A stretch of 64,000 bases of DNA from a virus. Below the pieces are notes generated by a model. That model had not been told where the DNA came from. It did no database searches and worked only from the letters and a program-made list of their open reading frames with translations. Where the stretch lies: positions 6,965-70,964 of the IMG/VR virus record IMGVR_UViG_3300045988_183931; one strand, given 5' to 3'. Of the stretch, positions 775 through 55,900 are shown in pieces (within the stretch, counting starts at the first letter, position 1; each line of letters starts with the position of its first letter). Position numbers and translations under genes: made by a program.

Positions 775-991
775 TATAATTACGAATGGTAAAACCCTGT
801 TATTTCCGGGTGGTGTATACCCAGCACAGGTATTCAGTTCCCCAAAGCGCTGGTGCCACCTCTCACGTGACTACCAGCCAACAGAGTATTCCTGCTTCCA
901 CGACGACCATGCATCTCCACAGGCGTTAATTCCGGCTATACCGTCCGTACTCGTTTTTATTTCCTTGGCAATGTGTGCAATCATTGCACAC
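775..991 (-). ncRNA. omega-RNA-like structured RNA, copy A: 5' hairpin, scaffold, terminal imperfect hairpin, putative 12-nt guide
   Basis: Starts 16 nt after the TnpB-like stop. Contains a perfect hairpin GUGUGCAAUGAUUGCACAC (991..973) and a stem-loop GUCAC-GUGAGAG-GUGGC. The U-G wobble in that stem is only possible on the minus-strand RNA. A terminal hairpin lies at 821..788, followed by UUCGUAAUUAUA (786..775). Related copies occur at 30600..31136. Confidence 0.5.
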
Positions 992-1006: not shown

Positions 1007-2065
1007 TTAGGCAGGCTTCTGCTCGGAAGCCATGCGCTGACCTTCGGACAGCACGACCTGTGCCAGTGCCTCATCATGCTTGGCTTCCGGTGCTACGGTG
1101 GCGGTATCTACGTCCACCAGAGTGCGTCCAGCCCAGTCCGCCTTATACTTTATCATACCGGTAAGTTCAGACCAGCCGGCATCGAGGATGCTTTTAGCCT
1201 GCTCATTGCCCTCAACTAAGGGCTTAACGGCCACCTTCTCAACGGCAATAAGCTGGTTTGCGTTGACAAGTTCACGGCTGATTTTATGCCGGTAGTCATT
1301 GCGCTGATTGGCAATATGCTCATGGACGCCGGCTACCTTGCGCCGCTGCTTCTCGTAGTTGACAGAGCCCTTCTTCTTGCGGGATAGACGCCGCTGCTCA
1401 CGTGCCAACCGCTTTGCAGACTTGCTCAGATGCTTCGGGTTCTCATAGTGAACGCCGTTGCTGTCAATAGCCAACTCCTTCAGGCCGAGACTGATTCCCA
1501 CCTCGCCGTCCACAATAGGCAGCGTGTCTCGCTCTACTTTACAGCAGACAGATGCCCAGTATTTTCCGGTAGCAGACCGAGAAATAGTGACCTCGCGGGG
1601 AGACCCTTCGATGGGGCGCCCCGTCCCTCGCCTGAGCTTGTTGATTTTCTGATACTGTCCTCCAAACGGAACCTGAATGTAATCGTCCGTCACATAGATA
1701 GTACCAGCGGTCGTAAAACTCTGTGTCGGATGGGACGCGCCCTTAAATTTGGGATAACCGGGCTTCTCCCCCGCTTTAATGCGGCGGAAGAACGCCTTTC
1801 GCGCCTCAAACAAATCAATGATGGCATATCTCTCTGCCGTACAGCCGCAGTCCGCAAGCCAAGGCCAGCGCTCCCGCATCTCCGTGAGAACCTTCATACA
1901 GTCGAAGGTCGTCATCTTCTCCTGTCGGCGCTCATAGATTTTGGAGGTTTGTTCAAGGAAATGGTTCCACACAAACCGGCAGCATTTGAAAGTCTTCTCG
2001 ATGATTTCGACCTGCTCATCAGTCGGGTAAATGCGATACTTAAACGCTTGAAATGTAGTTGGCAT
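1007..2065 (-). CDS. TnpB-like (IS200/IS605 OrfB family) protein, RuvC-inactivated and C-terminally truncated (TldR-like)
   Basis: 352 aa from ATG 2065, with RBS GAAAGGACGG. The N-terminus MPTTFQAFKYRIYPT and the motifs RRLSRKKKGS, ANQRNDYRHK and SILDAGWSEL..YKADWAGR are typical of TnpB. The RuvC-I site reads GISLG (Ser where Asp is expected). RuvC-II Glu is kept (IAVEKV). The ORF ends about 30 aa after GRTLVDVD with no CxxC zinc ribbon and no RuvC-III. The 42-aa extension in the ORF track (2066..2191) lacks an RBS. Confidence 0.8.
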   Translation of the reverse strand: MPTTFQAFKYRIYPTDEQVEIIEKTFKCCRFVWNHFLEQTSKIYERRQEKMTTFDCMKVLTEMRERWPWLADCGCTAERYAIIDLFEARKAFFRRIKAGEKPGYPKFKGASHPTQSFTTAGTIYVTDDYIQVPFGGQYQKINKLRRGTGRPIEGSPREVTISRSATGKYWASVCCKVERDTLPIVDGEVGISLGLKELAIDSNGVHYENPKHLSKSAKRLAREQRRLSRKKKGSVNYEKQRRKVAGVHEHIANQRNDYRHKISRELVNANQLIAVEKVAVKPLVEGNEQAKSILDAGWSELTGMIKYKADWAGRTLVDVDTATVAPEAKHDEALAQVVLSEGQRMASEQKPA

Positions 2066-2874: not shown

Positions 2875-2916
2875 GCCGAAGAGAGTTGATGTCGGCGGGG
2901 TGGGTAGAACGCCGGC

Positions 2917-2995
2917 TGGCAATAGCGGCTGGAGTTGAACCAACATATCGTTACCTGTGAGAGAGGTACGGCATTACCAGTTATGCTACGCTATC
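2917..2995 (-). tRNA. Atypical tRNA-like gene (possible anticodon CUC, Glu), CCA encoded
   Basis: Acceptor GAUAGCG/CGCUAUU (G-U at pair 1-72), D-arm GCAU..AUGC, anticodon arm UACCU-CUCUCAC-AGGUA, T-arm GUUGG-UUCAACU-CCAGC. It has an extra nucleotide at position 26 and a 7-nt variable loop, so it needs tRNAscan-SE confirmation. Confidence 0.35.
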
Positions 2996-27953: not shown

Positions 27954-30143
27954 TTACACCTCACCTCTTTCCGCTTTCTCAGCAAACCATTTTAAGAATC
28001 TCGATACATTGCGGGAATGGAGGCTATGGACATCTTCGGCGAGCTTCCATTCTGACAGGTCTACCATCCAAGAAGGGTACTTCTCCGTAAAGCCGGGGCA
28101 AGAGCGGTCAAGGTGCTCTTTCTCGGATGCCTCGCGCTGGCGGATGTGCTGCAGTGCCACATTCAGGTACTTGATACCGTAGGCGTAATCCACGCACTTA
28201 CCGCCGATAATCCATCCACCGAGGTTCTTGGTATTGATGGCGTAAGTCAGCCACTCGGAGTTCATAAAAGCGAGGTTGATATATTCGTCGCGGAACACCT
28301 CGAAGTTGGAACGGGCGCATTTCTTGCCCTCGTCAGCATACCAACGGCGGTTTATGGACTCGCCTTTCTCCACAGATACGAAGAAATGCGGCTTAGTCTC
28401 CATAACGGTTTCGATGATTTCAGCGTCATCGCCGAGATTACTGCCATCGCCATATGTGGAGTAGCGAATGCCATTAAAGAGATAATAGGTGCGCTGCTCC
28501 GGTGCGTCATACTCCACCAGATTGATGGGATAGATGGCGCAGTCATCAACGGAACAGTCATGGGTACGGTTGCGGTCTCCCCTGCCACGGTCATTCCAGT
28601 AAGGCCTATACCTGTATTCTCTCCCCGGAGTCAAAGAAAGGACGGTCAAGATACTATCACCTTTCTTTGCATCAGGCTTATTGCATCGCTTCACGATGTC
28701 TACAAAGCTGCCATAACGGTTGTCGGTCAACCAGCGGTCAGCCATGGAAAACACGACATATTCGGAGGACTTGGAGATTTTGACACCATCCGGCAGAGAA
28801 AGGATGTTGGAGCTATCCACCACACCCTGCAGGATATTGAACAGGAAAATTCTGGAAACCATTTCCACGACCATACTTCGCGCCTGTGAACGCTCCTCTT
28901 TGACACGCTGCTTCCGCTGGTATTCATCCTCCTGCCCGATATACTCCGTATTGACGCGGAAATCCTTGGGATTTACTTCCATAATGAAGTCATCTGTCAC
29001 ATGGACTTCCTCCGGGTCAGTCCAACCGATATAGACATTTTCTCCGTTTCGGATAATGATACCAATGGTGTTCCCGTGGTAGATATTATAGCTGTCCAGC
29101 ATATTGCTCCACATCTCATGCCCAAAGAAATGTTTGCCGGTCTTGCTGAGACGAACCAGTGCCACGCACTTCTCACTGGGAGCAAAGGTATCCAGCGCAA
29201 CAGGAGACGCTGCGAGAAACTCCTCGAAATACTTCAGCTTGCTTTCTTTCATGTTGTAAATGGAAGCAAGACGCCCCATCTCTTCATCGAGAAAACGGAG
29301 CTTCTGGAACAGGACAACCGGCTCCTTTTCCGGTGCGTTCCGGCCAGTGCGGATACGGGTAAAGTTGATTGTCTCACCCATGTAGCAGCGGATAGCATAA
29401 ATCTGAGATTCCAACAGGTAAATCTGATTGTTCATCATTTCTACCTGTTCCTCCAGAGCCTCGCGTTTGGCGGACAGCTCTGCCATCAGTTTGTCCTTTT
29501 TCTTCTCCAAGGCGGCCATGGCACGCTCGACCTCTTCCTTGAGGGCGCGGAGTTCATCACTGGTTCCGTTCTTGGTATCTTCGATATTGGCTTTGAGGGC
29601 GTTCAGCTCCGCCTCACGGTCGGACAGACCTTCGCGCACCTGAGAGACCGATAGAGACTCAGGCACGGATGCCGGCAGCGTCGATGAAGCGCCGTGCGTT
29701 GCGAGGGCTCGCATCTCGCCCACGGACATTGCGGAATAGTCCTTGACCGGCACATACTCCGCCACCAGAGAGTCCGGCTGGTAGAGAAAGAACCTACGAC
29801 TGCCGAGGCCGACGACCATACCAATGCCCTCATAAATGCTATATACGTTGGCAGGCTGCTCATAGGTCTTACAGTAGTCGATGAACTCAGAAAGGTTCTT
29901 GAGGTAGTCCTCAATGCGTTTCCGCCACCATCTCTCATTGGTGTCACTATTATCTCGCGAGAGACTGGACAGGTCTGTGAGTCCAGAAAAGAGCGTTGCA
30001 TCGTCTCTGTCATTCTCCCTGATAATGTGGGTTTCCTCCTGTCGGGCTTTTTCAAAGCGCCATTCACGGCTTCTCGCCGCCCACTCATTCTTGTATGCCT
30101 CGATGTCATTAAAGCGCACCGTCCCCAATATGGTGTTCTTCAT
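27954..30143 (-). CDS. Large hypothetical protein with a central coiled coil
   Basis: 729 aa with RBS GAGGTGAAAGGA. Heptad-rich segment EAELNALKANIEDTK...EEQVEMMNNQIYLLESQIYAI. No catalytic motif recognised. Confidence 0.65.
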   Translation of the reverse strand: MKNTILGTVRFNDIEAYKNEWAARSREWRFEKARQEETHIIRENDRDDATLFSGLTDLSSLSRDNSDTNERWWRKRIEDYLKNLSEFIDYCKTYEQPANVYSIYEGIGMVVGLGSRRFFLYQPDSLVAEYVPVKDYSAMSVGEMRALATHGASSTLPASVPESLSVSQVREGLSDREAELNALKANIEDTKNGTSDELRALKEEVERAMAALEKKKDKLMAELSAKREALEEQVEMMNNQIYLLESQIYAIRCYMGETINFTRIRTGRNAPEKEPVVLFQKLRFLDEEMGRLASIYNMKESKLKYFEEFLAASPVALDTFAPSEKCVALVRLSKTGKHFFGHEMWSNMLDSYNIYHGNTIGIIIRNGENVYIGWTDPEEVHVTDDFIMEVNPKDFRVNTEYIGQEDEYQRKQRVKEERSQARSMVVEMVSRIFLFNILQGVVDSSNILSLPDGVKISKSSEYVVFSMADRWLTDNRYGSFVDIVKRCNKPDAKKGDSILTVLSLTPGREYRYRPYWNDRGRGDRNRTHDCSVDDCAIYPINLVEYDAPEQRTYYLFNGIRYSTYGDGSNLGDDAEIIETVMETKPHFFVSVEKGESINRRWYADEGKKCARSNFEVFRDEYINLAFMNSEWLTYAINTKNLGGWIIGGKCVDYAYGIKYLNVALQHIRQREASEKEHLDRSCPGFTEKYPSWMVDLSEWKLAEDVHSLHSRNVSRFLKWFAEKAERGEV

Positions 30144-30165: not shown

Positions 30166-30576
30166 TCAAGTTTTACAGTAGCGGATAAAGTCCTGTGCCG
30201 AGAACGGCAGATTATCGTATCCGCAGTCCTTCAAATAACGGGAGACAACAGCAGAACTCATACTGATACGTCCATCTCCCGATGCCTTCATATGCTGTAA
30301 GCAGATGTCAGCATAACCATCTACCACATCAAGGTGTTCCAGACACCACTTCTCAACGCGGCGTTTGCGGGCCGCCAGAGACCGCTGTTCGGGATGCGGC
30401 ATCTTCTTGTAGGTGTATGCCTTTGCCGCCTTCTCGCGGCTCGTGTAGCCGAAACCTTGGGCATCATCCAATACCGCACCAGTCTTGGGCTGTATGACAA
30501 TGTAACGCGGTTCATATTCTGAGGAGAGCTCCCGCGAATATACGACTTTGAAGTAATCAGCCATACAAACAATCAT
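30166..30576 (-). CDS. Hypothetical protein
   Basis: 136 aa from ATG 30576 (MIVCMADYFKV). RBS GGTGGAAGG lies close upstream. ATG 30564 is an alternative start. Confidence 0.5.
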   Translation of the reverse strand: MIVCMADYFKVVYSRELSSEYEPRYIVIQPKTGAVLDDAQGFGYTSREKAAKAYTYKKMPHPEQRSLAARKRRVEKWCLEHLDVVDGYADICLQHMKASGDGRISMSSAVVSRYLKDCGYDNLPFSAQDFIRYCKT

Positions 30577-30599
30577 CGCCCTTCCACCGATTTTGATAC

Positions 30600-30765
30600 T
30601 CAAGCTGTTCCCCAAGGTGCTCTCACCTCGGTGCTGTACCGCCTCTCACGCGGTGTTCAGCCATGGGAAGTTCCTGCTTCTACGACGGAGTTCGTCTCCA
30701 CAGGCGTAAATTCCGGCTGTACCATCCGTACGTCTTTAAGTGTGCAATCATTGCACACTTTCCTT
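30600..30765 (-). ncRNA. omega-RNA-like element, copy C (divergent, no adjacent tnpB, no terminal hairpin)
   Basis: Same 5' hairpin GUGUGCAAUGAUUGCACAC (30758..30740) and GUACGGAUGGUACAGCCGGAAUUUACGCCUGUGGAGA. Stem-loop ACCGC-GUGAGAG-GCGGU is compensatory relative to copies A and B. UUGGGGAAC is conserved. It ends about 25 nt before the start of the 30576 gene. Confidence 0.45.
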
Positions 30766-30803
30766 GGATAATGAGCTTCCTTCGGATATAATCGTCATAC
30801 CGA

Positions 30804-30997
30804 GGTATACAACCCTGTTATTTCGGGGTGGTGTATACCCCTAACCGTGACATATCCTTTACGATAACGGGTATATGCCAGTGTGCAATGAGATGGTATA
30901 GTACCCTGTTTTTTTCTGGGTGGTGTATACCGCCACTCAAATTCAACGTGCGGCATCTTGTGGTATAGTACCCTGCTATTTCTGGGTGGTGTATACC
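30804..30997 (-). repeat. Three tandem imperfect-hairpin repeats (36-37 nt) separated by 55 and 30 nt
   Basis: Repeats at 30804-30839, 30895-30931 and 30962-30997. Consensus on the minus strand: GGUAUACACCACCC-N10-GGGU(NN)UAUACC. The same hairpin type ends copy A (788-821). Confidence 0.7.
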
Positions 30998-31136
30998 CAG
31001 CACAGGTATTCAGTCCCCCAATGCGTTGGTCGTCACCTCTCACGTGACTACCAGCCAACAGAGTATTCCTGCTTCCACGACGACCATGCATCTCCACAGG
31101 CGTTAATTCCGGTTATACCATCCGTACTTGTTTTTT
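30998..31136 (-). ncRNA. omega-RNA-like element, copy B (scaffold abutting the tRNA-Ser 3' end)
   Basis: About 90% identical to copy A over roughly 170 nt including hairpin repeat 3. It starts with an A7 run immediately after the tRNA CCA. It lacks the 5' hairpin. Confidence 0.45.
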
Positions 31137-31224
31137 TGGCGGAGAGAGTGGGAGTCGAACCCACGGATGCTTTCGCATCGCCGGTTTTCAAGACCGGTGC
31201 CTTCAACCACTCGGCCACCTCTCC
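31137..31224 (-). tRNA. tRNA-Ser (anticodon UGA), long variable arm, CCA encoded
   Basis: Starts GGAGAGGUGGCCGAGUGGUUGAAGGCA. Anticodon arm CCGGU-CUUGAAA-ACCGG, variable arm GAUGC-GAAA-GCAUC, T-loop GGUUCGACUCC. Confidence 0.85.
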
Positions 31225-31267
31225 GTATTCCCCGCCGCAGGGAGTGCCTACGGTGGGGTAATTGTTT

Positions 31268-32704
31268 TTACTCGGCTTCGCCCTCAGTGACGGCGGTAGG
31301 CTCAACACTGGGAGCAGATGCGGGAACTGCGACCTTGCCTCCGACAAAGCCGGCCAGCAGGCTCCGCAGGTCGATGCCCAAACCGTTCAGCATACCGTTG
31401 GAAACCTGAGTGGTAGAAGAAACGATGTCCTCAATCAGCTTCGTACTGTTACCCTCGCCGTACATGGTGATGGAATCCACATTAGTGAGAGGCGCGGCCA
31501 CGTTCTTGGCAATTTCGGGCAGTGCGTTCATAATCATCTCGACCACTGCGGCTTCACCGTACTTTTTCATGGCCTCAGCCTTACGGTCGATACCTTCCGC
31601 TTCGGCCAGAGCCTTGGCCTTGATAGCCTCGGCTTCTGCGGCACCGACGGCCTTGATACCTTCGGCAATCTGCTCCTGCTCGAAGCGCTTGGCCTCGGCT
31701 TCCTGCTTGCGGGCGTACAGCTCTGCTTCGGCCTTCTTTTCGGCAGCGTACTTATCGGCATCTGCCTTCTTGCGAATATCAGCATCCAACCGACGCTCCT
31801 GCAGCGTGATTTCACGCTCTGCCAGTTCTGCTTCCTTCTCGCGCTTCGCAATGTCGGCATCGGTAGATGCAATATCGAGGCTCCGGCGCTGCTTCTGTTC
31901 CTCAATCTTATAGGCAGCATCGGCAGCAGCCTTCTTGATGTCGGAGGTTTCCTTCAGCTCGGCCTGCTTCACGGCCAGTTCGGTCTTACGAATAGAAATC
32001 TGTGTATCGGATGCGACCTGAGCCTCGTTCGCCTGACGAGCCGCCTCCGCCTGAGCAATCTGGATATCGCGCTCCGCTTCGGCCTTGGCGATAGAAGCAT
32101 TTTTCTGGATTTGACTCATATTATCCTGACCCAGAGCATTGATAAGGCCCTTCTCGTCGGTCACGCGCTGGATATTACAGGAGATAATCTCGATACCCAA
32201 CGCATTCATGTCAACCTGCGCCTTTGACTGGATTTCATCACCGAATTTCTTACGGTCATTGCAGATTTCCTTGAGCGTTATAGTCCCGATAATCTCTCTC
32301 ATGTTTCCCTGCAGAGAGTCCGAAATCGCCTGCTCAAAGCCACGGGCATCAGTGATGTTCAGGAAGTTCCGCATAGCCAGCTTAATGCCCTCGTCATCTG
32401 TCCTGACACGGACCTTGGCAACGGCATCCACATCAACGCCGATGAAGTCCAGTGTGGGAATGTAGCCATCGGATTTGATGTCCACGGAAATCTGACGGAC
32501 AATTAGCTTATCGACGCGCTCCAGAAACGGAACGCGAACGCCGGCACGACCAATGAGGATTTTGGGCTTCTTGCGAAGACCGGAGATGATATACGCCATA
32601 TCGGGCGGCGCCTTGATATACCCCAAAATACAGATGATGAGGACCGCAATCACGATAATTGCGGGGACGAGAACGGCCTTGTTCCCAAAGAGCAGGTCAA
32701 ACAT
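31268..32704 (-). CDS. Flotillin-family protein (SPFH/Band 7 domain, FloT/YuaG-like)
   Basis: 478 aa. An N-terminal TM helix is followed by an SPFH core and a long Ala/Glu/Lys-rich coiled coil (AEAERDIQIAQAEAARQANEAQ...). Confidence 0.8.
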   Translation of the reverse strand: MFDLLFGNKAVLVPAIIVIAVLIICILGYIKAPPDMAYIISGLRKKPKILIGRAGVRVPFLERVDKLIVRQISVDIKSDGYIPTLDFIGVDVDAVAKVRVRTDDEGIKLAMRNFLNITDARGFEQAISDSLQGNMREIIGTITLKEICNDRKKFGDEIQSKAQVDMNALGIEIISCNIQRVTDEKGLINALGQDNMSQIQKNASIAKAEAERDIQIAQAEAARQANEAQVASDTQISIRKTELAVKQAELKETSDIKKAAADAAYKIEEQKQRRSLDIASTDADIAKREKEAELAEREITLQERRLDADIRKKADADKYAAEKKAEAELYARKQEAEAKRFEQEQIAEGIKAVGAAEAEAIKAKALAEAEGIDRKAEAMKKYGEAAVVEMIMNALPEIAKNVAAPLTNVDSITMYGEGNSTKLIEDIVSSTTQVSNGMLNGLGIDLRSLLAGFVGGKVAVPASAPSVEPTAVTEGEAE

Positions 32705-45275: not shown

Positions 45276-48200
45276 TTACTCGGCGCCATACTCCTTCTTG
45301 CGGCGGAACATGAACACCGCAGTGCCGCAGCAAGCAATGGCACTGAACGTACCCAGCATGGCCCACAGGCCGATGCCCTCATCGCCAGTCTGGACACTGT
45401 CGCGGAAATACACCGTCTGAGCACCGTCCATCAGGTCGTTGTGGGTAGCAATGACATTACCCGCCTCAGCACGACCCTCATACAGAGTCTCGAACACCAC
45501 GAGCGCATGGTCCTTCAGCTTGGATGCGTCGAACTTGAACGTAACATTCACAGCACCGTTGGAGGACTTGGGCGTAAAGGTCGTAGTAGCAGTTACCAGA
45601 TTACCCTTATTGTCCTTGAGGGCAACACCGGAATCCTTATCCATCAGCGTACCAACCAGTACGTAGGTCTTGCCCACAGTCAGGCCGGTATAGTTGACGG
45701 TGTCCACGATTTTTACGTTCTTACCAGCAACGGAGTTCTTCTTCTCCTTGCCATCGAAGGTAGCGGTGGTGGAAATGTTCGGACCGGAATAGGTCGGGAT
45801 GCGCTTGATGGTCACAGTCTGGTCAACATCGTTGATGTCGGCGTGAGTTGCGACCGTAGTGCCATTGCGGGTCAGGGTCTCGAACACGACCAGCGTCTTA
45901 CCGCCCAGAATGGATGCATCGAACACGAAACTCACATCCACAGTACCGTCAGAGGATTTGGCCTCGAACTCGGTAGTGGCGGTGATTTCCTTGTTGTTGC
46001 GGCCCAGAACAGGCTCACCTGTCGCCTTGTCCATCAGCTTACCGATTACGGTGTACTTATTGCCGGCAATCAGGCCCTTATAGGACACGGTATCGACCAG
46101 CTCGACCTTGCTGTAGGCCCAGAATTCCTTCTTGCCATCAGCAGCGTTCTTAGCGGTGGTCTTGATTTCAGGGCTGTTGACAGTCACAGTCTGGTCAACA
46201 TCGTTGATGTCGGCATGAACTGCGATTTCAATGTCCTTGTACTGCAGGGACTCGAATACAACGATAGACTGGCCACGCAGCAGAGATGCATCGAGCACGA
46301 AGAACACGTCAACGGTGCCATTGGACGCCTCAGCGGTGAAGGTAACGGAGGAGGTAATTTCCTTTCCGTCCTTATCCTTCAGGGGCTCGTTGGTGGCCTT
46401 GTTCATCAGCTTACCGGAGACAGTGTACTTCTCTCCAGCAATCAGGCCCTTATAGGACACGGTATCCTTGATTTCAGCGCGGGCTTCGGGGTCGAGGGTC
46501 TTGCCATTGGTGGCGTTGTTCACGGCCTTTGTACCGATTTCGGGAACGCCGATGGTGACGGTCTGCCCCTCATCGTTGATATCCTCGTGACTCACAAACA
46601 CGGGTTTATTGGAGTCGCCGGGAACAATCTCGTTGCCCAGATACACACGCTCGAATACCACCAGAGACTTGCCGGCCAGCTTGGAAGCGTCAAAGACGAA
46701 CTTCACATCCACCGTACCAGTGGCAGCTTCGGGAGTGAACACCTTGTAAGAGGTAACGGGGTCGCCGTTGGCATCGGTAACGGGCTTGCCGGTGGCCTTA
46801 TCCATCAGCGTACCGATAGCGATGAACTCCTTACCCACGGGCATATTCTCGTAGGAGATGGTATCCACCAGAATCACATCAGCCAGAGGCATGAACTCCT
46901 TGCCGCCAACAGCGTTCTTGGCCGTGGTGCCAATCTTGGGGTTCAGGATTACAACGGTCTGGTCAACATCGTTGATGTCAGCATGGGTAGCAACGACACG
47001 GTTTCCGCGCTTCAGGTCCTCGAAAACAACGATGGACTCGCTACCCAGCAGAGACGCATCAAAGGTGAACTCCAGCTCCACAAAGCCAGTGAAGTCGGCC
47101 TCAGCCTTGAAGGTCTTAGAGGCGGTAATGCGATTACCCTCGGCGTCCAGCAGAGGCTCGCCGGTGGACTTAACCACCAGATATCCCTCGACCGTATAGG
47201 TCTTGTTGGGGATAACATCGGTGCATTCCACCTTATCGACGATAGTGACAGTGGTGGCCGGAACGATTTCCTTGTTTCCTTCCTTGTCGGTTGCAGTAGT
47301 CTTGACCTTGGGAGTCACCGCCTCGTCCTCGGCGATGATATTCACAGTCACCAGACCGGTCTCGGCATCCAGAGAAATGGTATCGGGCGTAACGCTGAAG
47401 GTAATCGGGGTATCCATCAGCTCATAACCCTTCGGGGGTACGATTTCGACCAGATGATAGTTCTCGCCGTAAGGCAGAACCAGCGGGGTCACAAAATAAC
47501 CCTCATCATTTGTCTCGAATGTATCAATATAAGTTACCGTGGGGTAAGTGACCTTCTGGGACACCTTGTTCCCGTCAGGGTCGTAAATCTGGAACTTTGC
47601 ACCACCCCAAGGAATGACCTCGCCGTCAAGCTCATCGACCTTCACAACGCGCAGATACGCGGTAATAGGTCCGTTGTTGACAGCCAAGTCGTGATGGTCG
47701 TGGTCAACCTCGCCAACCAAAACGGTGAACTCAGGCGCGAGCCCCGCACCCTTATCGCCGGCCTTGGTCTGATGCACCACATAGGTGCCGTAGGGCAACT
47801 CGATGGACTTGCCGCTGTAACCCAAGTCGTTGGTCGTCAGGATGCCGCGCTCGTCATCCTTAGCGTTCTCGTAAGAGCCGGCGGACTGCAGCCAATACTT
47901 GAACTCTGCACCGCCCTCGAACTTAGCGGGACCGGAGGTGCCGTCGGAGATGAACTTGGTAATGGCGAATGTGCCGCGATTGATGACCTCGACAGAGGTA
48001 ATCTGGGGAGCAACGTTGTGTTCGATACGGTAATTCTCCGGCTCGGAGCCAACGCGATACACGCCCTCATCAATCTGATAGCCAGTGGGGGCCTTGATTT
48101 CACGGATGGTGTAATCATAGCCGCAGATGTACTCGTCAGTGGTGAACTTGCCATCGCTGCCGATAACGTACTCCTTCACCAGCTCGTCACCCTTATAGAG

Positions 48201-50942
48201 ACCGTACACAGCACCCTCAAAGACACCATCGCCGCGAGGGATGTTGCCAGTCTCGGCGTCCGTCTTCTCCACAGTGACCTTCCACTTCTTCAGTACGTTG
48301 GTCACAGCGGTGTCGGTAACTTTCTGGAACTCCACAACGAGACCTGTCTGCACGGCAGGAATAACATACTTCACCGCCGTATCGACTTCCTCCAGCGTGT
48401 AGTTGTTGCCAATCAGGACATCCTTGAAGATGGCAATACCGTCAGCGTTGGTGGTAGCAGTCAGGTCAACAGCATCGCCGGAGATGGCAGTGCCATGCAG
48501 CCGGAAGGTGATGCCCTCGACCATGCCGTCCTCAGAGGTCTTGGTAACGCGCAGGTCGCCGCGCTTGAGCTTGTTGTAGACATTCACGGGGGTGGTGTTA
48601 TCCAGAGTAACCTTCACACCGTTTGTCACAGCGGGAACGATATACTTGGCAGCCGTGTTCACTTCCTCAACGCTGTAGTTGTTGCCAATCAGAACGTTGT
48701 TGAAGGTGGCAACTCCGGCGTCATTGGTCACGGCGGTCATATCCACCGTCTCGCCGTTGATAGCAGTACCGGACAGGCGGAACGTGATACCAGCGACCTT
48801 GCCGTCCTCGGAGGTCTTCTTAACCTCAACGGCGCCGCGAGCCAGCTTATTGTGGAAGTTCAAGCTGGTGGTGTTGTTGAGCGTGACGGTCACATTGCTC
48901 TGGACAGCGGGAACAACGTACCGCTCGGCGGTGTTGATTTCCTGCACGGTATAGTTATTACCGATAAGGATTTCTCTGAACATGACGACGCCGTTCTCGT
49001 CGGTAGAAGCAGTTTCATTGACTGCTGCTCCGGAGATAGACGTACCGGTCAGCCGGAAGGTCATGCCTGCCACGAAGCCGTCCTCGGATGTCTTCGTGAT
49101 TTTCAGATTGCCGCGAGCCAGCTTGTTCTCGAACTGAGCAGGGGTGCTGGTGTTGTACTCAACCACCACGCCAGCCTGCACCGCAGGAACAACATACTTC
49201 GCGGCGGTGTTGATTTCCTCCAGCTTATAGTTGTTGCCCACAGGAACATTATTGAAGGTAGCCACGCCGTTGGCATCCGTCACAGCCGTCATGTTGACAG
49301 CCGTACCTGCTGCGGAAGTGCCGGACAGCCGGAAGGTGTGTCCAGCAATCTGACCATCCTCAGAGGTCTTAGTAACCTTCACAACGCCCTTCTTCAGTAC
49401 GTTGCTGAAGTTCACTGTCTTGAAATCGCCGATAGCGATGGTCACAGTTTGAGGCTGCGTCGGGATGTAGTTGTTAGGTGTATTCTCCGTTACTGTGTAA
49501 GTACCGGGCTGCAAATCGGTAATGGCAATCTTACCGTTCGCACCAGTGGTCACAGTCTTGCTGTAACCGTTAGGACCCGTGACCGTGAAGCTCACGCCGC
49601 CAACCTTGCCATCCTCTGAAGTCTTGGCAATGTTCAAATCGCCGGTAGTCTTTGTGACCTTGGCGCGGACGTAGGCAGTAACGGGGTCAGGTGTACCGTT
49701 AAGAGCAACGCAATCCTGCTTACTGCCGCCGGCAACAAGCAGATAGGCATTGACGCTATCAGGGTCAATCACATTGCCCTCAGAAGCATACGACGCAATG
49801 CCGTTCAGCATACTCTTCGCGGCTTCCGGAGTGGCTGTAATCGTAAGATTGTTTCCACTCTGGAAGGTGCTCACACCGGGCAGGCTGAACTCGAAGTCGT
49901 CAAAATTTCTCAGGACTCTGTAGGTGTCGGTTCTTGTCAGAGACCAAGAAGTACCATCCCAAGCCAGTTCGAAGTCGTTTCTCGTATCACGCGGACTCCT
50001 TACGGCAAAACTCGGTATAACGGTCTGCTGGTTAATCTTCTCCCAGATATAATCGTGTGCCGCCTTGATGGGCACAGCAACTTCAGGGTCATACTGATGA
50101 CCGGGACCCACAAACAGGTCACTCAGGTCACTGTAGCCGCCGACGATTTCCCAGATAACTTCCTGTGTGGCGCACCAAGCATAGGTGCCGTTGCCAGCAT
50201 ACCAGAGCAACGTTGAGTCATCTGCCCCACCGTAGCCATAGGCAAGCGCGAGGCGAACCCGCTGGTCTCCCCAATACGCGCTGGCATCAACGGAAGTTCC
50301 CGCGCCGGGGGAATCCTTGTGGGGTTCAATACAGTACGCCGGCTGGCCGTTGAAATATTTTACAACGGCACTGGAATAGGGTGCGAACTCAGCCATCCAC
50401 TTGCTGTTATAGCCCATGTCGTCACCGGTCGTAATGGTGCCCGATGCGCGAGCGGGAGCCCTCATTGCACTGATAGCTTTGGGGGCGTTCTGTGTAGACC
50501 CGTACAGGAAGGAAACGTTCACGGGAGTATTCTCTCCAGCGTAGGGGTCCTGAAGTCCCTCCTCCGTCACGGAAGATTTGACAGACTCATCCTTACCAGC
50601 CTCAGATTTAGCTTCACCCGGAGCAGCCTGCCCGTTTTCAGAGGAGCTCTCTTTGGAGGTGTCCTTCTTATCGGCACCGCCCTTAACATCATCCTCAACC
50701 ACGGAAGAATCGGACTTCTTACCGTCATCGGGATTCTTCGTGTCTTCTGTGGCGTTGTAGACCAAATCGCCGTCGCCAGAACCAGTATTTCCAACCTTCA
50801 CAGGGTCAGAAACACTTCCGATAACGACCGAATCGCCGCCGCCATCCGCGTCCGACGCATACACGGATGTCGGGAGCATTCCGACCACCATCACCAGCGT
50901 CAGCAGCATAGCAACAACGCCACGCATTTTCTTGTGTTTCAT
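45276..50942 (-). CDS. Giant cell-wall-anchored adhesin: signal peptide, thioester (TQXA-type) domain, CnaB-like repeats, ester-bond-type Ig-like repeats, SVQTG sorting signal
   Basis: 1888 aa from ATG 50942, with RBS GAAAGGAGA. Thioester-domain signatures are QPAYCIEP and CATQEVIW. KTSEDG repeats occur 5 times and H.DI.D..QTV repeats 5 times. The C-terminus has SVQTGD, a TM helix and an RRKKE tail. Confidence 0.85.
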   Translation of the reverse strand: MKHKKMRGVVAMLLTLVMVVGMLPTSVYASDADGGGDSVVIGSVSDPVKVGNTGSGDGDLVYNATEDTKNPDDGKKSDSSVVEDDVKGGADKKDTSKESSSENGQAAPGEAKSEAGKDESVKSSVTEEGLQDPYAGENTPVNVSFLYGSTQNAPKAISAMRAPARASGTITTGDDMGYNSKWMAEFAPYSSAVVKYFNGQPAYCIEPHKDSPGAGTSVDASAYWGDQRVRLALAYGYGGADDSTLLWYAGNGTYAWCATQEVIWEIVGGYSDLSDLFVGPGHQYDPEVAVPIKAAHDYIWEKINQQTVIPSFAVRSPRDTRNDFELAWDGTSWSLTRTDTYRVLRNFDDFEFSLPGVSTFQSGNNLTITATPEAAKSMLNGIASYASEGNVIDPDSVNAYLLVAGGSKQDCVALNGTPDPVTAYVRAKVTKTTGDLNIAKTSEDGKVGGVSFTVTGPNGYSKTVTTGANGKIAITDLQPGTYTVTENTPNNYIPTQPQTVTIAIGDFKTVNFSNVLKKGVVKVTKTSEDGQIAGHTFRLSGTSAAGTAVNMTAVTDANGVATFNNVPVGNNYKLEEINTAAKYVVPAVQAGVVVEYNTSTPAQFENKLARGNLKITKTSEDGFVAGMTFRLTGTSISGAAVNETASTDENGVVMFREILIGNNYTVQEINTAERYVVPAVQSNVTVTLNNTTSLNFHNKLARGAVEVKKTSEDGKVAGITFRLSGTAINGETVDMTAVTNDAGVATFNNVLIGNNYSVEEVNTAAKYIVPAVTNGVKVTLDNTTPVNVYNKLKRGDLRVTKTSEDGMVEGITFRLHGTAISGDAVDLTATTNADGIAIFKDVLIGNNYTLEEVDTAVKYVIPAVQTGLVVEFQKVTDTAVTNVLKKWKVTVEKTDAETGNIPRGDGVFEGAVYGLYKGDELVKEYVIGSDGKFTTDEYICGYDYTIREIKAPTGYQIDEGVYRVGSEPENYRIEHNVAPQITSVEVINRGTFAITKFISDGTSGPAKFEGGAEFKYWLQSAGSYENAKDDERGILTTNDLGYSGKSIELPYGTYVVHQTKAGDKGAGLAPEFTVLVGEVDHDHHDLAVNNGPITAYLRVVKVDELDGEVIPWGGAKFQIYDPDGNKVSQKVTYPTVTYIDTFETNDEGYFVTPLVLPYGENYHLVEIVPPKGYELMDTPITFSVTPDTISLDAETGLVTVNIIAEDEAVTPKVKTTATDKEGNKEIVPATTVTIVDKVECTDVIPNKTYTVEGYLVVKSTGEPLLDAEGNRITASKTFKAEADFTGFVELEFTFDASLLGSESIVVFEDLKRGNRVVATHADINDVDQTVVILNPKIGTTAKNAVGGKEFMPLADVILVDTISYENMPVGKEFIAIGTLMDKATGKPVTDANGDPVTSYKVFTPEAATGTVDVKFVFDASKLAGKSLVVFERVYLGNEIVPGDSNKPVFVSHEDINDEGQTVTIGVPEIGTKAVNNATNGKTLDPEARAEIKDTVSYKGLIAGEKYTVSGKLMNKATNEPLKDKDGKEITSSVTFTAEASNGTVDVFFVLDASLLRGQSIVVFESLQYKDIEIAVHADINDVDQTVTVNSPEIKTTAKNAADGKKEFWAYSKVELVDTVSYKGLIAGNKYTVIGKLMDKATGEPVLGRNNKEITATTEFEAKSSDGTVDVSFVFDASILGGKTLVVFETLTRNGTTVATHADINDVDQTVTIKRIPTYSGPNISTTATFDGKEKKNSVAGKNVKIVDTVNYTGLTVGKTYVLVGTLMDKDSGVALKDNKGNLVTATTTFTPKSSNGAVNVTFKFDASKLKDHALVVFETLYEGRAEAGNVIATHNDLMDGAQTVYFRDSVQTGDEGIGLWAMLGTFSAIACCGTAVFMFRRKKEYGAE
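45400..47320 (-). repeat. 5 tandem domain repeats of about 128 aa (about 384 nt) within adhesin 1
   Basis: Each ends with the recurrent H(A/E/N)D(I/L)xDxxQTV. The periodicity is also visible as periodic shadow ORFs on the plus strand. Confidence 0.7.
48290..49660 (-). repeat. 5 tandem CnaB-like repeats of about 95 aa within adhesin 1
   Basis: Recurrent (V/I)(T/K)KTSEDG..(A/V)G..F.L.GT...G. Confidence 0.7.
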
Positions 50943-51479
50943 GGTATTTTTGTCTCCTTTCAATGAATGTAATTTAGAGAAAACCAGCCTTCTTATATTT
51001 ATCGGTTTCTTGTTATTGCCAATTTTGAAACTGATATTACAAGGAGGCGGATTGCCCTCCATGTTTTTATGGTAGCATAATCGCGCATATTGTCAACACA
51101 TCCAAGAACACAATTTGCAAAACGAATAAAACACATTGTTCAAGGCAAAAAAAGGAACAACAACAGAAGAACAGCGACCTAAGTCGCTGTTCTTCTGTTT
51201 TAGCAAATAGCTTACGCTGCGAAATAAACATAGAATTCGTGATGACCAGCCGAGGCATTCCATCTCGCAACACAGTTTACTGTAGCAGCTCACCCCTCAA
51301 CCTCCGGAGTCCATCGTCCGTTTTCAAAATGAGAGCGTAGGAAGCCGTTCATATTTCAAACACAAAAAAGCCGAGACACCACCTCGTTTCTGAAATGGCA
51401 TCTCGGCTCTTTGAAGTTTTGAGTTTTTTAGAAAATGACATCTACTCCCTTAGTCGAGGAAAACAACATAAGTCAGGAG

Positions 51480-52975: not shown

Positions 52976-55900
52976 TTACTTATTTTTCTTTCTTCTCTTG
53001 ACGTTGCTCACTACAACGACAATAATTGCAGTTCCCAAGGCAATCGAGCCCAAAGAGACATATTTGCCGACGCCATCGTCTCCAGTCTTGGGAGACGCGG
53101 TAACAGTCACAGTCTGTCCAGCATCATTGATGTCAGTATGGCTCAGGTACGGAGTCCCGTCCACACTTCCTCCGACATACACCTCCTCAAACACGACAAT
53201 CTTCGCACCCTTGATGTTCGACGCAGCGAAGGAGAATTTCATGTCGATGGAGCCATCGGAGGCCTTCGGGGTAAATGTCAGCTTGGAGGTTACTTCCCTG
53301 CCGCCCGCATCGCGCAGAGCCTCCCCCGTCTGAGCATCCATCAACCTGCCAACCAAGGTGTAATTCTGACCAACAGCCAACCCAGAATAACTCACGGTAT
53401 CAACGACCACAAGGCGAGAGGCGTAACCGCTGGACTTCGAGCCATTGGCAAATGTCGCCGTAGTTCCCATAGCAGGCCCGCTATAATGGATGCGGTCAAC
53501 AGTAACCGTTTGTTTCTCGTCCATTATGTCAGCGTGAGTAGTGACACTCATGTTGTTGTAGAGGAGCTCCTCGTACACAACGAGAGTTTTCCCCGCAACG
53601 GAACGAGCACCAAACACAAAGGAAACCGTCGTTGTTCCTTCGGCCTTTTCAGGAGTAAAGGTCGCAGTAGCGGTCAAGGGCTTTTTGTCCTTGTCCATGA
53701 CGGGTTTACCTTCGACCCAATTCTCACCAGATTTAACCTTTTCTACCAGAGTCCCGACCAAGGTGTACTCGTGACCGGGGATAAGTCCCTCATAGGTCAC
53801 AGTGTCCACCAGCTCGGCTTTCTCATACGGAGAGAAAGTCTTCTTCCCCGTAGAAGCATTGGCAGCAGAGGTCTTGATAGTGGGATTCAAAAAGGCAACG
53901 GTCTGCGCGGCGTCTTCCAAATCTTCATGGGTTGCCAGAGCCGCTTCATCGTCCTTGTTGTAATAGAGGTACTCAAACACAACAATATCCTTACCTGCGA
54001 GTGCCCTTCCGTCGAACTCAAACACGACATCAATAGAACCGGAGAGTTTGTCAGGCGTAAAGGCGGTGGTTGCAATAATAAAGTTGCCATCCTTATCCAT
54101 CACAGGTTTTCCAGTAGCCTTATACATCAGCTTACCAACAAGTGTGTACTTGTGGGCAGTAGAGAGGTGGTCGTATTTTACAGTATCAGTCAAAACAACC
54201 TTCTCCGTGGGGTCAACCAGCTTTTTCCCATCGACTTTGTTTGTTGCGATGGTTTCAACAATGACGGGCTTCTTAATCTCGACAGACTGGTTTTCATCGT
54301 TGATATCACGGTGAGAGGCGACGACCGTCTCTCCGTAGTACAAGTCCTCAAAAACGACCAGAGTGCGCCCAAAGAAATCTCGTGCATCGAATTTGAACTC
54401 GACAACCACAGAGCCGTTCTCGCTCTCTGGCGCGAACACTTTTTCAGCAGTGATGGACTTCCCCGCTGAATCCTCCACAGGTTTGCCCGTGGACTTATCC
54501 ATCAGAGTGCCAACGACCTTGTACGTATGTCCAGCAATGATGCCTTCGTAGTCCACAGTATCCTTCAGGATAACCTCGCTGGCGGGCTCAAACACCTTCG
54601 TGCCGTCAGCAGCATTTTCAGCGCAGGTCTTGATGGAAGATTTTACCACGGTCACAGTTTGGTCAGCATCCTCAATATCCTTGTGCGCCGCCACAGGTGC
54701 CTCGTCACCAGCAGTAAAGAACAGTTCCTCGAACACCACGATATCGCGTCCCTTCACGGCAGAAGCGTCGAAAGCGATAGCCGCAACAGCCGAGCCAGCA
54801 GTGCTTTCAGGCGTGAACTGCATCTCCGAAACGACGGGTATGCCGTTATTCAGAACAGGCTCGCCGGTAGTTTTATCAACCAAGCTGCTTCTTAGTGTGT
54901 AGGTGTGTCCAGTAGACAGGTGACGATATACCACAGTATCATTGATGGTAGAAGTTTCAGAGGCATCAATGAGCTTTCCTCCATCCACCGCGCTCAAAGC
55001 AACAGTCCGTACGATTTCAGGGTTGTGAACCGTAGTAGTCTGCTCCTCATCATTGATATCCTCATGGGACGCAATGACAGTTCCGTTGAAGAGTAGCTTC
55101 TCGAACGCCACGATGGTTTTGCCATACAACTCAGTTGCAGCGAAGGGGAATTCAACATCCACCGTGCCGCAGGGAGCATCAGGAGTAAACTCCACAGAAG
55201 AAGCCACGATGCTTCCCGCAGTATCCTTGATGGGCTTGCCGGTTCCCTTATCCATCAGAGTTCCGGTCACGGTGTATCTATGTCCCACAATGAGATTGTT
55301 GTAAAACACGGTATCCTTCAGCGTAACCGTCTGGTCCGGTTCAAAGACCTTGCCATTATCTTCTTTGTTCACGGCAACAGTCCTTACTTCAGGGCTTGTT
55401 ACAGAAACGGTCTGTTTTCCATCGTCGATATCCCTATGGACGGCGACCGGTTCAGTATCTTCGGAGTTGAAATAAATTTCCTCAAACACAACAATGTCTT
55501 TGCCCTTCAAGAAGGAAGCAGTGAAAACAAACTGCATATCCACAGAACCGCTTGCTTCCACAGGCGTAAAAGTCTGTTCAACTACAACTTCTGTGCCACC
55601 ATTTTTGATAGGTTCACCCGTTTCCTTGTTCATTAACGTACCGCGCAAGGTGTATTCGTGGCCAGCAGACAGATGCTCATACATAACAGTGTCGGTGATT
55701 TTCACATTGGCTGCGGGGTCAATCAGCTTACCGCCTCCAAGAGTTCCAACCGCCGTTGTGCCAGTGATGTTAGGCGCATAAACCGTCACCGTCTGTTCCC
55801 TGTCGTTGATATTTTCGTGAGAAGCAATCTCAGTGTCATTACAGAAAATTTTCTCGAAAACAACAATGTCTTTCCCGTACAACTCTGTGGCCGCAAAGGT

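What the first reader, a model, noticed from the sequence alone, without database searches (positions are those of the whole stretch)
30804..30997. Array of three imperfect hairpin repeats with 55- and 30-nt spacers downstream of scaffold B
The repeats are 36-37 nt long and lie at 30804-30839, 30895-30931 and 30962-30997. On the minus strand they read GGUAUACACCACCC-loop-GGGU(AC/UG)UAUACC. They are the same hairpin type that terminates scaffold A just before the putative guide. On the minus strand the order is scaffold B, hairpin, 30-nt unique segment (ACAAGAUGCCGCACGUUGAAUUUGAGUGGC), hairpin, 55-nt segment, hairpin. One reading is reiterated IS200/IS605 right-end hairpins (PATE/REP-like debris). 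Another is several guide-bearing units in series, a repeat-plus-guide arrangement reminiscent of proposed TnpB-to-CRISPR intermediates. The 55-nt segment contains a fragment of the 5' scaffold hairpin (AUUGCACACU), which favours a history of nested or duplicated elements.
Basis: partly seen in the sequence, partly recalled or inferred. Interest (0 to 1): 0.55.

Follow-up and report, generated by a model that had tools for sequence, protein, structure and literature searches.

The report
CRISPR-like guide array on TnpB RNA
The three hairpins are the repeats of a small CRISPR-like array fused to the guide-RNA scaffold of a probably nuclease-dead TnpB protein, and its two 30-nt spacers match genes of other mobile elements, which suggests one mobile element uses RNA guides against its rivals.

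Summary
Three 36-37-nt imperfect-hairpin repeats sit at the stated coordinates, and a fourth ends the scaffold next to a TnpB gene.

They are not transposon-end debris. About 30 related contigs, which IMG/VR lists as viral, carry the same TnpB omega-RNA-like scaffold. There it is followed by arrays of 2-6 such repeats with unique spacers, mostly 30 nt long. Relatives differ in spacer content, and new spacers appear at the scaffold-proximal end.

15 of 59 spacers match one integrative mobile element (0.11 hits expected by chance in one copy). 14 of these 15 lie on the sense strand, and 14 of 15 have a G just 5' of the match.

The window's 30-nt spacer matches that element at 29/30; a sister variant matches 30/30. 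The "55-nt spacer" is really a 25-nt remnant plus a second 30-nt spacer, which matches a large serine recombinase gene 30/30.

The linked TnpB (352 aa) has the first catalytic RuvC Asp replaced by Ser and lacks the zinc finger and third catalytic Asp, like TldR. No cas genes were found in the window.

Best reading: an array-bearing variant of a dead TnpB guide system that silences rival mobile elements. How spacers are acquired is unknown.

The parts
31137..31224 (-). tRNA-Ser(tga), immediately upstream of scaffold B (1-2 nt gap). It probably supplies transcription and 5' processing for the scaffold-array RNA.
   Evidence: The same tRNA-Ser to scaffold junction is conserved in L006, L029, L039, L042, L044, L046, L049, L060, L071 and L105. 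No minus-strand promoter-like site lies within 30500-31400.
30998..31135 (-). Scaffold B: an orphan TnpB omega-RNA-like scaffold. It is 94% identical to scaffold A and has no adjacent tnpB gene.
   Evidence: It shares the motifs ACGCCTGTGGAGA and GAAGCAGGAAT with the RNA region downstream of an intact TnpB paralogue. RNAalifold on 68 family members gives a multibranch fold with compensatory changes in an internal stem.
30962..30997 (-). Repeat R1 (36 nt), GGTATACACCACCCAGAAATAGCAGGGTACTATACC. It is the terminal hairpin module of scaffold B.
30932..30961 (-). Spacer S1 (30 nt), ACAAGATGCCGCACGTTGAATTTGAGTGGC.
   Evidence: It matches 29/30 in L110-L112 and 28/30 in L102. The sister variant ...GAGGAGC matches 30/30 in L102. 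The site is inside the 107-122-aa ORF upstream of the Rep-like gene of an integrative mobile element, on the sense strand, with G at -1.
30895..30931 (-). Repeat R2 (37 nt; the loop carries one extra A).
30870..30894 (-). 25-nt remnant, ATCTCATTGCACACTGGCATATACC. It holds a half-site of the GTGTGCAAT-N-ATTGCACAC palindrome and a repeat-like 3' end, so it is a scar of a rearrangement.
   Evidence: (D9, I1). The first 22 nt are shared with L041, L105 and L106, where a deletion joins them to mid-scaffold C.
30840..30869 (-). Spacer S2 (30 nt), CGTTATCGTAAAGGATATGTCACGGTTAGG.
   Evidence: It matches 30/30 at L118:1768-1797, on the sense strand inside a 535-aa large serine recombinase gene (Resolvase, Recombinase, Zn_ribbon_recom and DUF4368 domains).
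30804..30839 (-). Repeat R3 (36 nt), the best hairpin of the three. It is homologous to the terminal repeat of the orthologous arrays in L037, L061 and L104.
30761..30803 (-). Sequence following the last repeat. It could be a terminal guide, but no target was found.
   Evidence: No match outside the orthologue L044.
30738..30760 (.). Perfect palindrome AAGTGTGCAATGATTGCACACTT. It also follows the tnpB gene at about 972-992.
   Evidence: (I2). In relatives it closes arrays and is followed by a T-run, so it looks like a terminator.
30600..30737 (-). Scaffold C: a third, more diverged scaffold copy without a terminal repeat. It runs into the 149-aa ORF.
   Evidence: (D3, D5, D6).
1007..2065 (-). 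TnpB homologue (352 aa) with an inactivated RuvC site; the presumed effector.
   Evidence: Pfam OrfB_IS605 8.6e-25 and HTH_OrfB_IS605. It aligns to ISDra2 TnpB (8H1J, 8EXA) at E 4e-49 over residues 6-322. The first catalytic Asp is Ser (GISLG). Homology ends before the zinc finger and the third catalytic Asp. The same features occur in all clade members.
786..962 (-). Scaffold A (822-962) plus a truncated repeat (786-821) directly downstream of the dead tnpB. This is the zero-spacer state of the locus.
   Evidence: In relatives 1-3 repeat-spacer units are inserted at this same locus (L032, L033, L027, L053).
51086..51115 (+). Site matched by a spacer of a related element (L004). It overlaps a TTGACA -35-like box just upstream of the 1928-aa adhesin gene.
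   Evidence: 24/30 in the window, and 28/30 in L085 and L087; 18 nt are contiguous from spacer position 1.

Best explanation
The region is a CRISPR-like guide array grown onto the 3' end of a TnpB omega-RNA scaffold.

On the minus strand the order is: tRNA-Ser, scaffold B, R1, spacer S1 (30 nt), R2, a 25-nt scar, spacer S2 (30 nt), R3. The repeat is the terminal hairpin of the scaffold. In this family of elements that hairpin has been reiterated, each copy followed by a roughly 30-nt spacer taken from other mobile elements next to a 5' G.

The RNA is probably made together with the tRNA and freed by tRNA processing (inferred). It probably loads the 352-aa TnpB homologue encoded 30 kb away (inferred). 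That protein has lost its nuclease site, like TldR.

The complex would bind complementary DNA flanked by 5'-G and block transcription. Its targets are rival integrative elements: an island carrying Rep, FtsK, Xis and integrase genes, and a serine recombinase gene (inferred from the dead active site and the sense-strand bias).

Shown here: the array architecture, spacer turnover with scaffold-proximal growth, the protospacers, the flanking G and the dead-site sequence features. Inferred: which protein uses the RNA, silencing as the outcome, whether distal units are processed and used, and how spacers are acquired (no cas1 or cas2 was seen).
For: 1. Architecture. In loci from about 30 related contigs the scaffold is followed by 2-6 repeats with a 65-67-nt period. 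Of 131 spacers, 68 are 30 nt, 15 are 31 nt, and 4 each are 29 and 32 nt; 74 are unique.

2. The scaffold is a true omega-RNA homologue. It directly follows the TnpB gene and shares motifs with the RNA downstream of an intact paralogue. Its fold is conserved.

3. Turnover and polarity. At one locus with the same downstream flank, the spacer sets differ between L053, L065, L010, L025 and L062. A nested series exists: S1' alone, then ATCACCCC plus S1', then four spacers, with additions always next to the scaffold.

4. Birth of arrays. The scaffold-A locus shows a 0, 1 and 2-spacer series, all ending in the same truncated repeat.

5. Targets. 13 hits with at least 22 of 30 matches fall in L102, against 0.11 expected (maximum 1 in 100 shuffles). 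15 of 59 spacers hit the island family, three at 30/30 and one at 31/32. The window's S1 matches 29/30 and S2 30/30 in a serine recombinase gene.

6. Flank and strand. G is at -1 in 14 of 15 island protospacers, against a background of 0.27. 14 of 15 lie on the sense strand of the island operon. The repeat itself ends in C, so the array lacks the motif.

7. Effector. The catalytic Asp is Ser and the C-terminus is truncated. In L053, L010, L065, L062 and L025 the array sits directly after this gene.

8. The tRNA-Ser to scaffold junction is conserved while the spacers differ.
Against: - There are no expression or processing data. Nothing shows that units after the first are used. The repeat is a self-contained hairpin with no demonstrated pairing to the scaffold, so how a roughly 140-nt scaffold would serve distal units is unexplained.
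- The window's own array is partly decayed: there is a 25-nt scar, R1 and R2 are weak hairpins, and no target was found for the post-R3 segment.
- No adaptation genes were found, so the way spacers arise is unknown.
- Relatives also carry an intact TnpB paralogue that might use these RNAs.
- S2's protospacer has C rather than G at -1.
- About three quarters of the spacers have no identified target.
- 'Nuclease-dead' is inferred from sequence only.
Confidence: 0.68

Rival explanations
1. The array guides a nuclease. The intact TnpB paralogue found in related elements (about 370 aa, with D, E, D and the zinc finger present), or another nuclease, uses these scaffold-array RNAs to cut rival elements, as in ordinary type V or TranC interference. 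The dead copy would be a regulator or a decoy.
For: Relatives encode an intact paralogue 51% identical to the dead one. Its downstream RNA shares core scaffold motifs. Spacers aimed at other mobile elements are typical of interference systems.
Against: The scaffold family with the repeat always follows the dead gene and never the intact one. The intact paralogue's own RNA lacks the repeat hairpin and is otherwise diverged. No intact paralogue lies in this 64-kb window. The strong sense-strand bias is what a transcriptional roadblock by a Cas12-like binder would give (my own knowledge of ddCas12a work), and cleavage would not need it.
Confidence: 0.15
2. Only the scaffold-proximal guide is ever used. 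The distal repeat-spacer units are a passive fossil record of earlier guides, pushed outward as new ones are added or exposed by repeat-repeat recombination. This would be guide switching rather than a processed multi-guide array.
For: The repeat is a self-contained hairpin with no evident pairing to the scaffold. Distal units are often degenerate or truncated, with spacers of 16-25 nt and decayed terminal repeats. Relatives differ by loss of internal units.
Against: Several arrays keep 4-5 units with near-identical repeats and full-length spacers, for example L053, L049 and L104. Distal old spacers such as S1' are conserved across diverged relatives and still match targets 30/30.
Confidence: 0.3
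3. It is a conventional solitary mini-CRISPR array carried by a mobile element. It would borrow the host's Cas machinery, and the neighbouring scaffold would be unrelated or merely tracr-like.
For: The 36-nt repeats, 30-nt spacers, flanking motif and polarised growth are all classic CRISPR features. No cas genes are nearby, as in known virus-borne mini-arrays (my own knowledge).
Against: The first repeat always starts exactly at the scaffold's 3' end, and the TnpB-linked scaffold ends in a copy of it even when there is no array. A degenerate repeat pattern found no array in one genome for each of 185,579 species, only 13 single hits that look like chance.
Confidence: 0.07
4. It is PATE/REP-like debris. 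The hairpins would be reiterated IS200/IS605 right-end palindromes left by nested or abortive transposition, and the intervening DNA would be meaningless.
For: The hairpin derives from a TnpB element end. The window copy contains a scar and a palindrome fragment.
Against: The spacing is fixed near 30 nt in 91 of 131 units. Spacers match foreign elements exactly, with a motif and a strand bias. The hairpin is not dispersed. None of the Pfam scans of window ORFs returned a Y1 transposase domain.
Confidence: 0.03

Closest known systems
TldR (TnpB-like nuclease-dead repressors; Wiegand et al., PMC10705468)
   Same: It is a TnpB homologue of about 350 aa with a mutated or truncated RuvC site. It is encoded on a mobile element next to an omega-RNA-derived guide RNA, and the presumed action is RNA-guided DNA binding and repression.
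   Different: I found no mention of TldR guide arrays in that preprint. As described in the papers I read, TldRs act with adjacently encoded guide RNAs at promoters and regulate host genes such as flagellin and oppA. Here the scaffold carries arrays of up to at least 5 variable 30-nt spacers. There are many orphan scaffold-array loci per element (138 scaffold copies against about 30 tnpB copies in the fetched loci). The targets are mostly inside genes of other mobile elements, and the flanking motif is a single G.
TranC (transposon-CRISPR intermediates; Jin et al. 2025 Cell, as summarised) and type V-U/Cas12f-like systems
   Same: It is a TnpB-sized protein linked to a short CRISPR array of 32-38-nt repeats without an adaptation module. 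It is often found in gut Clostridia or phage contigs and has a compact flanking motif.
   Different: [quoted passage not shown] Here the protein looks nuclease-dead. The scaffold is not visibly split: it is fused to the first repeat, and the whole terminal hairpin is the repeated unit. By sequence the protein is far closer to ISDra2 TnpB (E 4e-49) than to LaTranC (E 7.5e-12, residues 241-320 only).
Cas12m / Cas12c (type V effectors reported to have lost DNA cleavage and to repress transcription) and plasmid-borne type IV CRISPR systems
   Same: They give array-guided silencing without target cleavage. Type IV systems are encoded on one mobile element and aimed at others (that point is my own knowledge).
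   Different: Those effectors are larger or multi-subunit, with their own crRNA processing. None has an omega-RNA scaffold fused to the array.
Canonical IS200/IS605 TnpB-omegaRNA (ISDra2)
   Same: It has a homologous protein fold and a homologous RNA scaffold, the guide lies 3' of the scaffold, and the motif lies 5' of the target.
   Different: The canonical element has one guide fixed by the transposon flank, an active nuclease and a 5-nt TAM (TTGAT, my own knowledge). Here no tnpA or transposon left end was identified.

Membership tests
CRISPR array (structural definition) | Direct repeats of about 23-55 nt separated by unique spacers of similar length | tested here: met
   The repeats are 36-37 nt. 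Family-wide spacer lengths peak at 30 nt (68 of 131) with 29-32 nt around it, and 74 are unique. The window has two 30-nt spacers plus one scar.
CRISPR array (structural definition) | Spacers derive from or match foreign genetic elements, with a conserved adjacent motif | tested here: met
   15 of 59 spacers match one integrative island family. In one copy, 13 hits were found against 0.11 expected. S2 matches a serine recombinase gene 30/30. G is at -1 in 14 of 15 island protospacers.
CRISPR array (structural definition) | Polarised addition of spacers at one end, with the old spacers conserved at the other | tested here: met
   Nested spacer series occur at two orthologous loci, and additions are always scaffold-proximal.
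CRISPR-Cas system | Associated adaptation genes (cas1, cas2) | tested here: not met
   There was no PADLOC hit at E of 1e-5 or better in 40 window ORFs and no Cas domain in any of the Pfam scans of window ORFs. Only 64 kb was examined; related contigs reach about 190 kb.
TnpB omega-RNA (reRNA) | A structured RNA scaffold encoded at or after the 3' end of tnpB, homologous to scaffolds of related TnpBs, with the guide directly 3' | tested here: met
   Scaffold A directly follows tnpB. It shares motifs with the intact paralogue's RNA and has a conserved fold with some compensatory changes. Scaffold B is 94% identical but orphan. No Rfam family matched.
TldR | A TnpB homologue with an inactivated RuvC nuclease site | tested here: met
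   The position of ISDra2 D191 is Ser. Homology ends at about residue 322, before the zinc finger and the third Asp. This is conserved in the clusters at 99%, 87% and 79% identity. Sequence evidence only.
TldR | The guide directs binding at a promoter and represses transcription | not testable with these tools
   One spacer of a relative overlaps a -35-like box of the adhesin gene. Most protospacers are intragenic on the sense strand. There are no functional data.
TranC | [quoted passage not shown] | tested here: inconclusive
   The scaffold is contiguous with the first repeat. RNAalifold closes the scaffold on itself and folds the repeat as its own hairpin. No anti-repeat could be shown, and the candidate pairings are invariant, so they cannot be tested by covariation.
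TranC | Active RNA-guided nuclease | tested here: not met
   The catalytic residues are missing.
IS200/IS605 PATE / REP-like repeat | A dispersed palindromic unit mobilised by a Y1 transposase, with no meaningful content between copies | tested here: not met
   Only 4 copies exist, all scaffold-linked. No Y1 transposase domain appeared in the Pfam scans of window ORFs. The intervening 30-mers have exact foreign matches.

The most novel reading that the evidence does not exclude
This is an independent, Cas1/Cas2-free origin of a heritable spacer array caught in the act. A domesticated, nuclease-dead TnpB keeps its omega-RNA unsplit. By a still unknown ruler mechanism it reiterates the terminal hairpin with new 30-nt, G-flanked spacers at the scaffold-proximal end. 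That gives a large mobile element an adaptive, multi-locus, tRNA-driven silencing system against competing integrative elements. The series of 0, 1, 2 and 3 spacers at a single TnpB right end would be a living series of steps from omega-RNA to CRISPR.
Probability: 0.35. Interest if true: 0.9.

Novelty: new variant of a known kind. Interest (0 to 1): 0.78.

Why it matters
How TnpB's single fixed guide became the expandable, memory-bearing CRISPR array is only partly understood. TranC systems show the RNA split, but not how arrays and spacer uptake begin.

This family offers natural intermediates at one locus, running from a bare right end to a multi-spacer array with the scaffold still fused. 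No cas1 or cas2 is in view, so the acquisition step becomes directly testable.

It would also extend nuclease-dead TnpB (TldR) biology in two ways. The first is from single hard-wired guides that regulate host genes to variable multi-guide arrays used in conflicts between mobile elements. The second is practical. It suggests a very compact (352 aa) binder with a 1-nt motif, expressed naturally from tRNA-guide fusions, which could be useful for multiplexed CRISPRi-like tools.

Tried and rejected
- GenBank phages: no match to the locus. A query of 57 pooled spacers found only one uncharacterised human-faecal phage fragment, MT835962.1, with matches to three spacers.
- The island region had no match in GenBank phages or in PLSDB plasmids.
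- The first 18 nt of S1 hit an AT-rich phage (L079-L084), but only 19/30 overall. With a collection of this size, that is about what I estimate chance would give, so it was rejected as a target.
- No spacer other than the L004 one has a match of at least 21/30 in the window outside the array. The window's own spacers therefore do not target this 64 kb.
- The post-R3 43 nt and the extra spacer of L041 have no match in IMG/VR.
- Rfam, at both the gathering and E-value thresholds, gives only tRNA for the locus.
- Covariation cannot tell apart the alternative partners of the repeat 3' end (the repeat's own 5' arm or the scaffold's GGUAUA), because both are nearly invariant.
- PHROGs and Pfam annotation of the window gave no phage hallmark genes. 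Whether the replicon is a phage or a plasmid stays open.
- The 149-aa and 729-aa ORFs downstream of scaffold C have no informative hits.

Full report
**Observation.** On the minus strand the region reads as follows:
- tRNA-Ser(tga), 31224-31137
- a 138-nt structured segment, scaffold B, 31135-30998
- repeat R1, 30997-30962
- a 30-nt unique segment, 30961-30932
- repeat R2, 30931-30895
- 55 nt, 30894-30840
- repeat R3, 30839-30804
- 43 nt
- a perfect palindrome, 30760-30738
- a third, diverged scaffold copy, scaffold C, to about 30600
- a 149-aa and a 729-aa ORF with no family hits.

The repeat core GGTATACACCACCC occurs four times in 64 kb, against 0.19 expected. The fourth copy (786-821) ends scaffold A.

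Scaffold A lies directly downstream of a TnpB gene at 1007-2065, minus strand (Pfam OrfB_IS605, 8.6e-25). Scaffolds A and B are 94% identical.

As single strands the repeats are only moderate hairpins. R3 is the best (-8.5 kcal/mol as DNA); R1 and R2 prefer an inner stem.

**The same structure elsewhere.** An invariant 22-mer of the scaffold found 74 loci on about 30 IMG/VR contigs of 8-373 kb, mostly 40-190 kb, often with many copies per contig.

In these loci the repeat core forms arrays with a 65-67-nt period. Each array starts exactly at the 3' end of a scaffold.

A census found 75 arrays of 2-5 detected repeats, and a separate core-motif scan listed one locus (L049) with six. There were 131 spacers, of which 68 are 30 nt, 15 are 31 nt, and 4 each are 29 and 32 nt; 74 are unique. 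Shorter spacers and degenerate repeats cluster at the distal end.

BLAST found 138 scaffold copies but only about 30 tnpB copies in the fetched DNA. Most scaffold-array units are therefore orphan, like scaffold B.

**The scaffold is an omega-RNA.**
- It follows the tnpB stop codon.
- It shares the blocks AGCCG.AA.T.ACGCCTGTGGAGA and GAAGCAGGAAT with the RNA region downstream of an intact TnpB paralogue in related contigs.
- RNAalifold on 68 distinct copies gives a multibranch fold closed by a 5'-3' helix, with compensatory changes in an internal stem. The repeat folds as a separate terminal hairpin whose pairs are kept in 61-68 of 68 sequences.
- Rfam has no matching family.

**Spacer turnover.** Loci with the same downstream flank carry different spacer sets: L053 has three, L065 one of those, L010 a truncated one, and L025 and L062 others.

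The array orthologous to the window's shows a nested series. S1' stands alone in L103, L107, L108 and L109. ATCACCCC... plus S1' occurs in L037, L057 and L061. Four spacers occur in L104. L041 has one extra spacer before S1. Additions are always on the scaffold side. A second locus behaves the same way.

At the TnpB-linked locus there is a 0, 1 and 2-spacer series (the window has zero). All end in the same truncated repeat ...GGGTTTTACCAT|TCGTAATTATAG, which shows units being inserted at a former transposon right end.

The tRNA-Ser to scaffold junction (1-2 nt) is conserved in at least ten relatives, yet their spacers are entirely different. No minus-strand promoter-like site lies within the locus itself (30500-31400). 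Co-transcription with the tRNA, with tRNA processing freeing the scaffold's 5' end, is therefore a reasonable inference.

**Targets.** A metagenome scan with the central 24 nt of S1 returned seven array copies and one non-array site, L102. L102 is a bacterial chromosome fragment (sufC/D, ychF, a HAD hydrolase) carrying a roughly 6-kb island. The island encodes:
- a lipoprotein
- two HTH regulators
- a 107-122-aa ORF
- a Rep-like protein
- an FtsK/SpoIIIE protein
- a Tn916-type Xis
- a tyrosine integrase.

Its left neighbours vary, so it is an integrative mobile element.

Spacers from many different arrays hit this island. There are 13 hits with at least 22 of 30 matches in L102, against 0.11 expected (maximum 1 in 100 shuffles).

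Across six island copies, 15 of 59 spacers match. Three match 30/30 and one 31/32. The window's S1 matches 29/30, and its sister variant 30/30.

14 of the 15 lie on the sense strand of the island's rightward operon, and 14 of 15 have G immediately 5' (background 0.27). The repeat ends in C, so the array itself lacks this motif.

Re-parsing the '55-nt spacer' as 25 + 30 nt gave a second spacer, CGTTATCGTAAAGGATATGTCACGGTTAGG. It has a 30/30 sense-strand match inside a large serine recombinase gene on another IMG/VR contig.

A spacer from a relative (L004) matches the -35-like region upstream of the 1928-aa adhesin gene. The match is 28/30 in two relatives and 24/30 in the window at 51086-51115.

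**The protein.** The 352-aa TnpB aligns to ISDra2 TnpB over residues 6-322 (E 4e-49). However, it has Ser at the first catalytic Asp (GISLG), and it ends in an unrelated tail before the zinc finger and the third catalytic Asp.

The closest database clusters (99, 87 and 79% identity, besides a 221-aa fragment) share these features and lack the PF07282 domain. The next full-length relatives, at about 50% identity, are intact TnpBs of 370 aa.

An intact paralogue exists in related contigs but not in this window, and it is not followed by this scaffold. In L053, L010, L065, L062 and L025 the array lies directly after the dead gene.

**What is missing.**
- No cas gene or other defence family was found in 40 window ORFs. 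No Y1 transposase and no phage hallmark gene was found in the Pfam or PHROGs scans.
- The window encodes giant TQ/SpaA/thioester adhesins, a topoisomerase, a RecG-like helicase, flotillin, a PemK toxin and tRNAs. 'Viral' is IMG/VR's label, not something I could confirm.
- A degenerate repeat pattern found no array in one genome for each of 185,579 species. That argues against a host CRISPR system sharing the repeat.

**Interpretation.** The finding is one locus of a CRISPR-like, TnpB-derived guide system. The repeat is the omega-RNA's terminal hairpin. Spacers are 30-nt pieces of rival mobile elements taken next to a 5' G. The likely effector is nuclease-dead.

From my own knowledge of ddCas12a work, Cas12-type binders block transcription best when the guide pairs with the template strand. 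That corresponds to the sense-strand spacers seen here. I therefore favour RNA-guided silencing of competing integrative elements (confidence about 0.68 for the overall model, lower for the silencing step).

Open points are whether distal units are processed and used, whether the intact paralogue can use these RNAs, and how spacers are acquired without visible adaptation genes.

**Relation to known systems.** The system combines the dead effector of TldR with the array association of TranC and type V-U. I found no mention of guide arrays in the TldR preprint. TranCs are described as nucleases with a split tracrRNA and crRNA. It differs from both in three ways: an unsplit scaffold fused to the array, many orphan tRNA-linked loci, and a 1-nt motif. 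I found no description of such a system in the searchable literature, but the TranC paper itself was not available to read.

I class it as a new variant of a known kind.

Noticed in passing
window 30600-30760 (-), then ORFs 30166-30615 (-) and 27954-30143 (-): A third, diverged scaffold copy (C) has the 5' palindrome but no terminal repeat. It runs straight into a 149-aa ORF followed by a 729-aa ORF, and neither ORF has an informative family hit. In L041, L105 and L106 a deletion joins the array remnant to the middle of scaffold C.
   Followed up: partly
window 30738-30760 and about 972-992; half-site at 30880-30889: The perfect palindrome AAGTGTGCAAT-G-ATTGCACACTT recurs after tnpB, before scaffold C, and as a fragment in the array scar. 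In relatives it closes arrays and is followed by a T-run, so it could be a terminator or a protein operator.
   Followed up: partly
window 741-785 (-); L013, L036, L051: The first 16 nt after scaffold A's truncated repeat (TCGTAATTATAGTTCT) recur exactly in an intergenic region of more distant relatives. On the opposite strand that region carries TTGACA and TATAAT-like boxes. It may be a hard-wired TldR-style promoter target, but its -1 base is T rather than G.
   Followed up: partly
window 51086-51115 (+), upstream of ORF 45276-51062 (-): A spacer from a related element (L004) matches the -35-like region of the giant adhesin gene's upstream DNA, 24/30 here and 28/30 in two relatives. This suggests either targeting between sibling elements or self-regulation.
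   Followed up: partly
window 2452-2995 (-) and 31137-31224 (-): A tRNA-Glu/Thr/Thr/Gly cluster lies upstream of the dead tnpB, and a tRNA-Ser is fused to scaffold B. Both arrangements are conserved in relatives, so tRNAs appear to drive or process these RNAs.
   Followed up: partly
L044:8209-9330, L053:7630-8751, L010:2439-3560: Related contigs carry a second, catalytically intact TnpB paralogue (GIDVG, AVEDL, CxxC...CxxC, DRDINAA) with its own diverged omega-RNA. It is absent from this window.
   Followed up: partly
proteins P0022, P0026: A second truncated TnpB-like clade of about 320 aa lacks the first-Asp motif and the zinc finger. It may be another independent dead lineage.
   Followed up: no
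window 45276-51062 (-) and 52976-63991 (-): Two giant ORFs (1928 and 3671 aa) are built of TQ ester-bond, SpaA and thioester domains, as in Gram-positive adhesins. With a topoisomerase, a PemK toxin and no phage hallmark hits, the replicon may be a plasmid-like element rather than a phage.
   Followed up: partly
L109:1659-1761 and L037/L061/L104: The same spacer (ATCACCCCTCGCAAAGATGGCAGTCGGCTGG) sits in two different arrays of related elements. This implies recombination between arrays.
   Followed up: no
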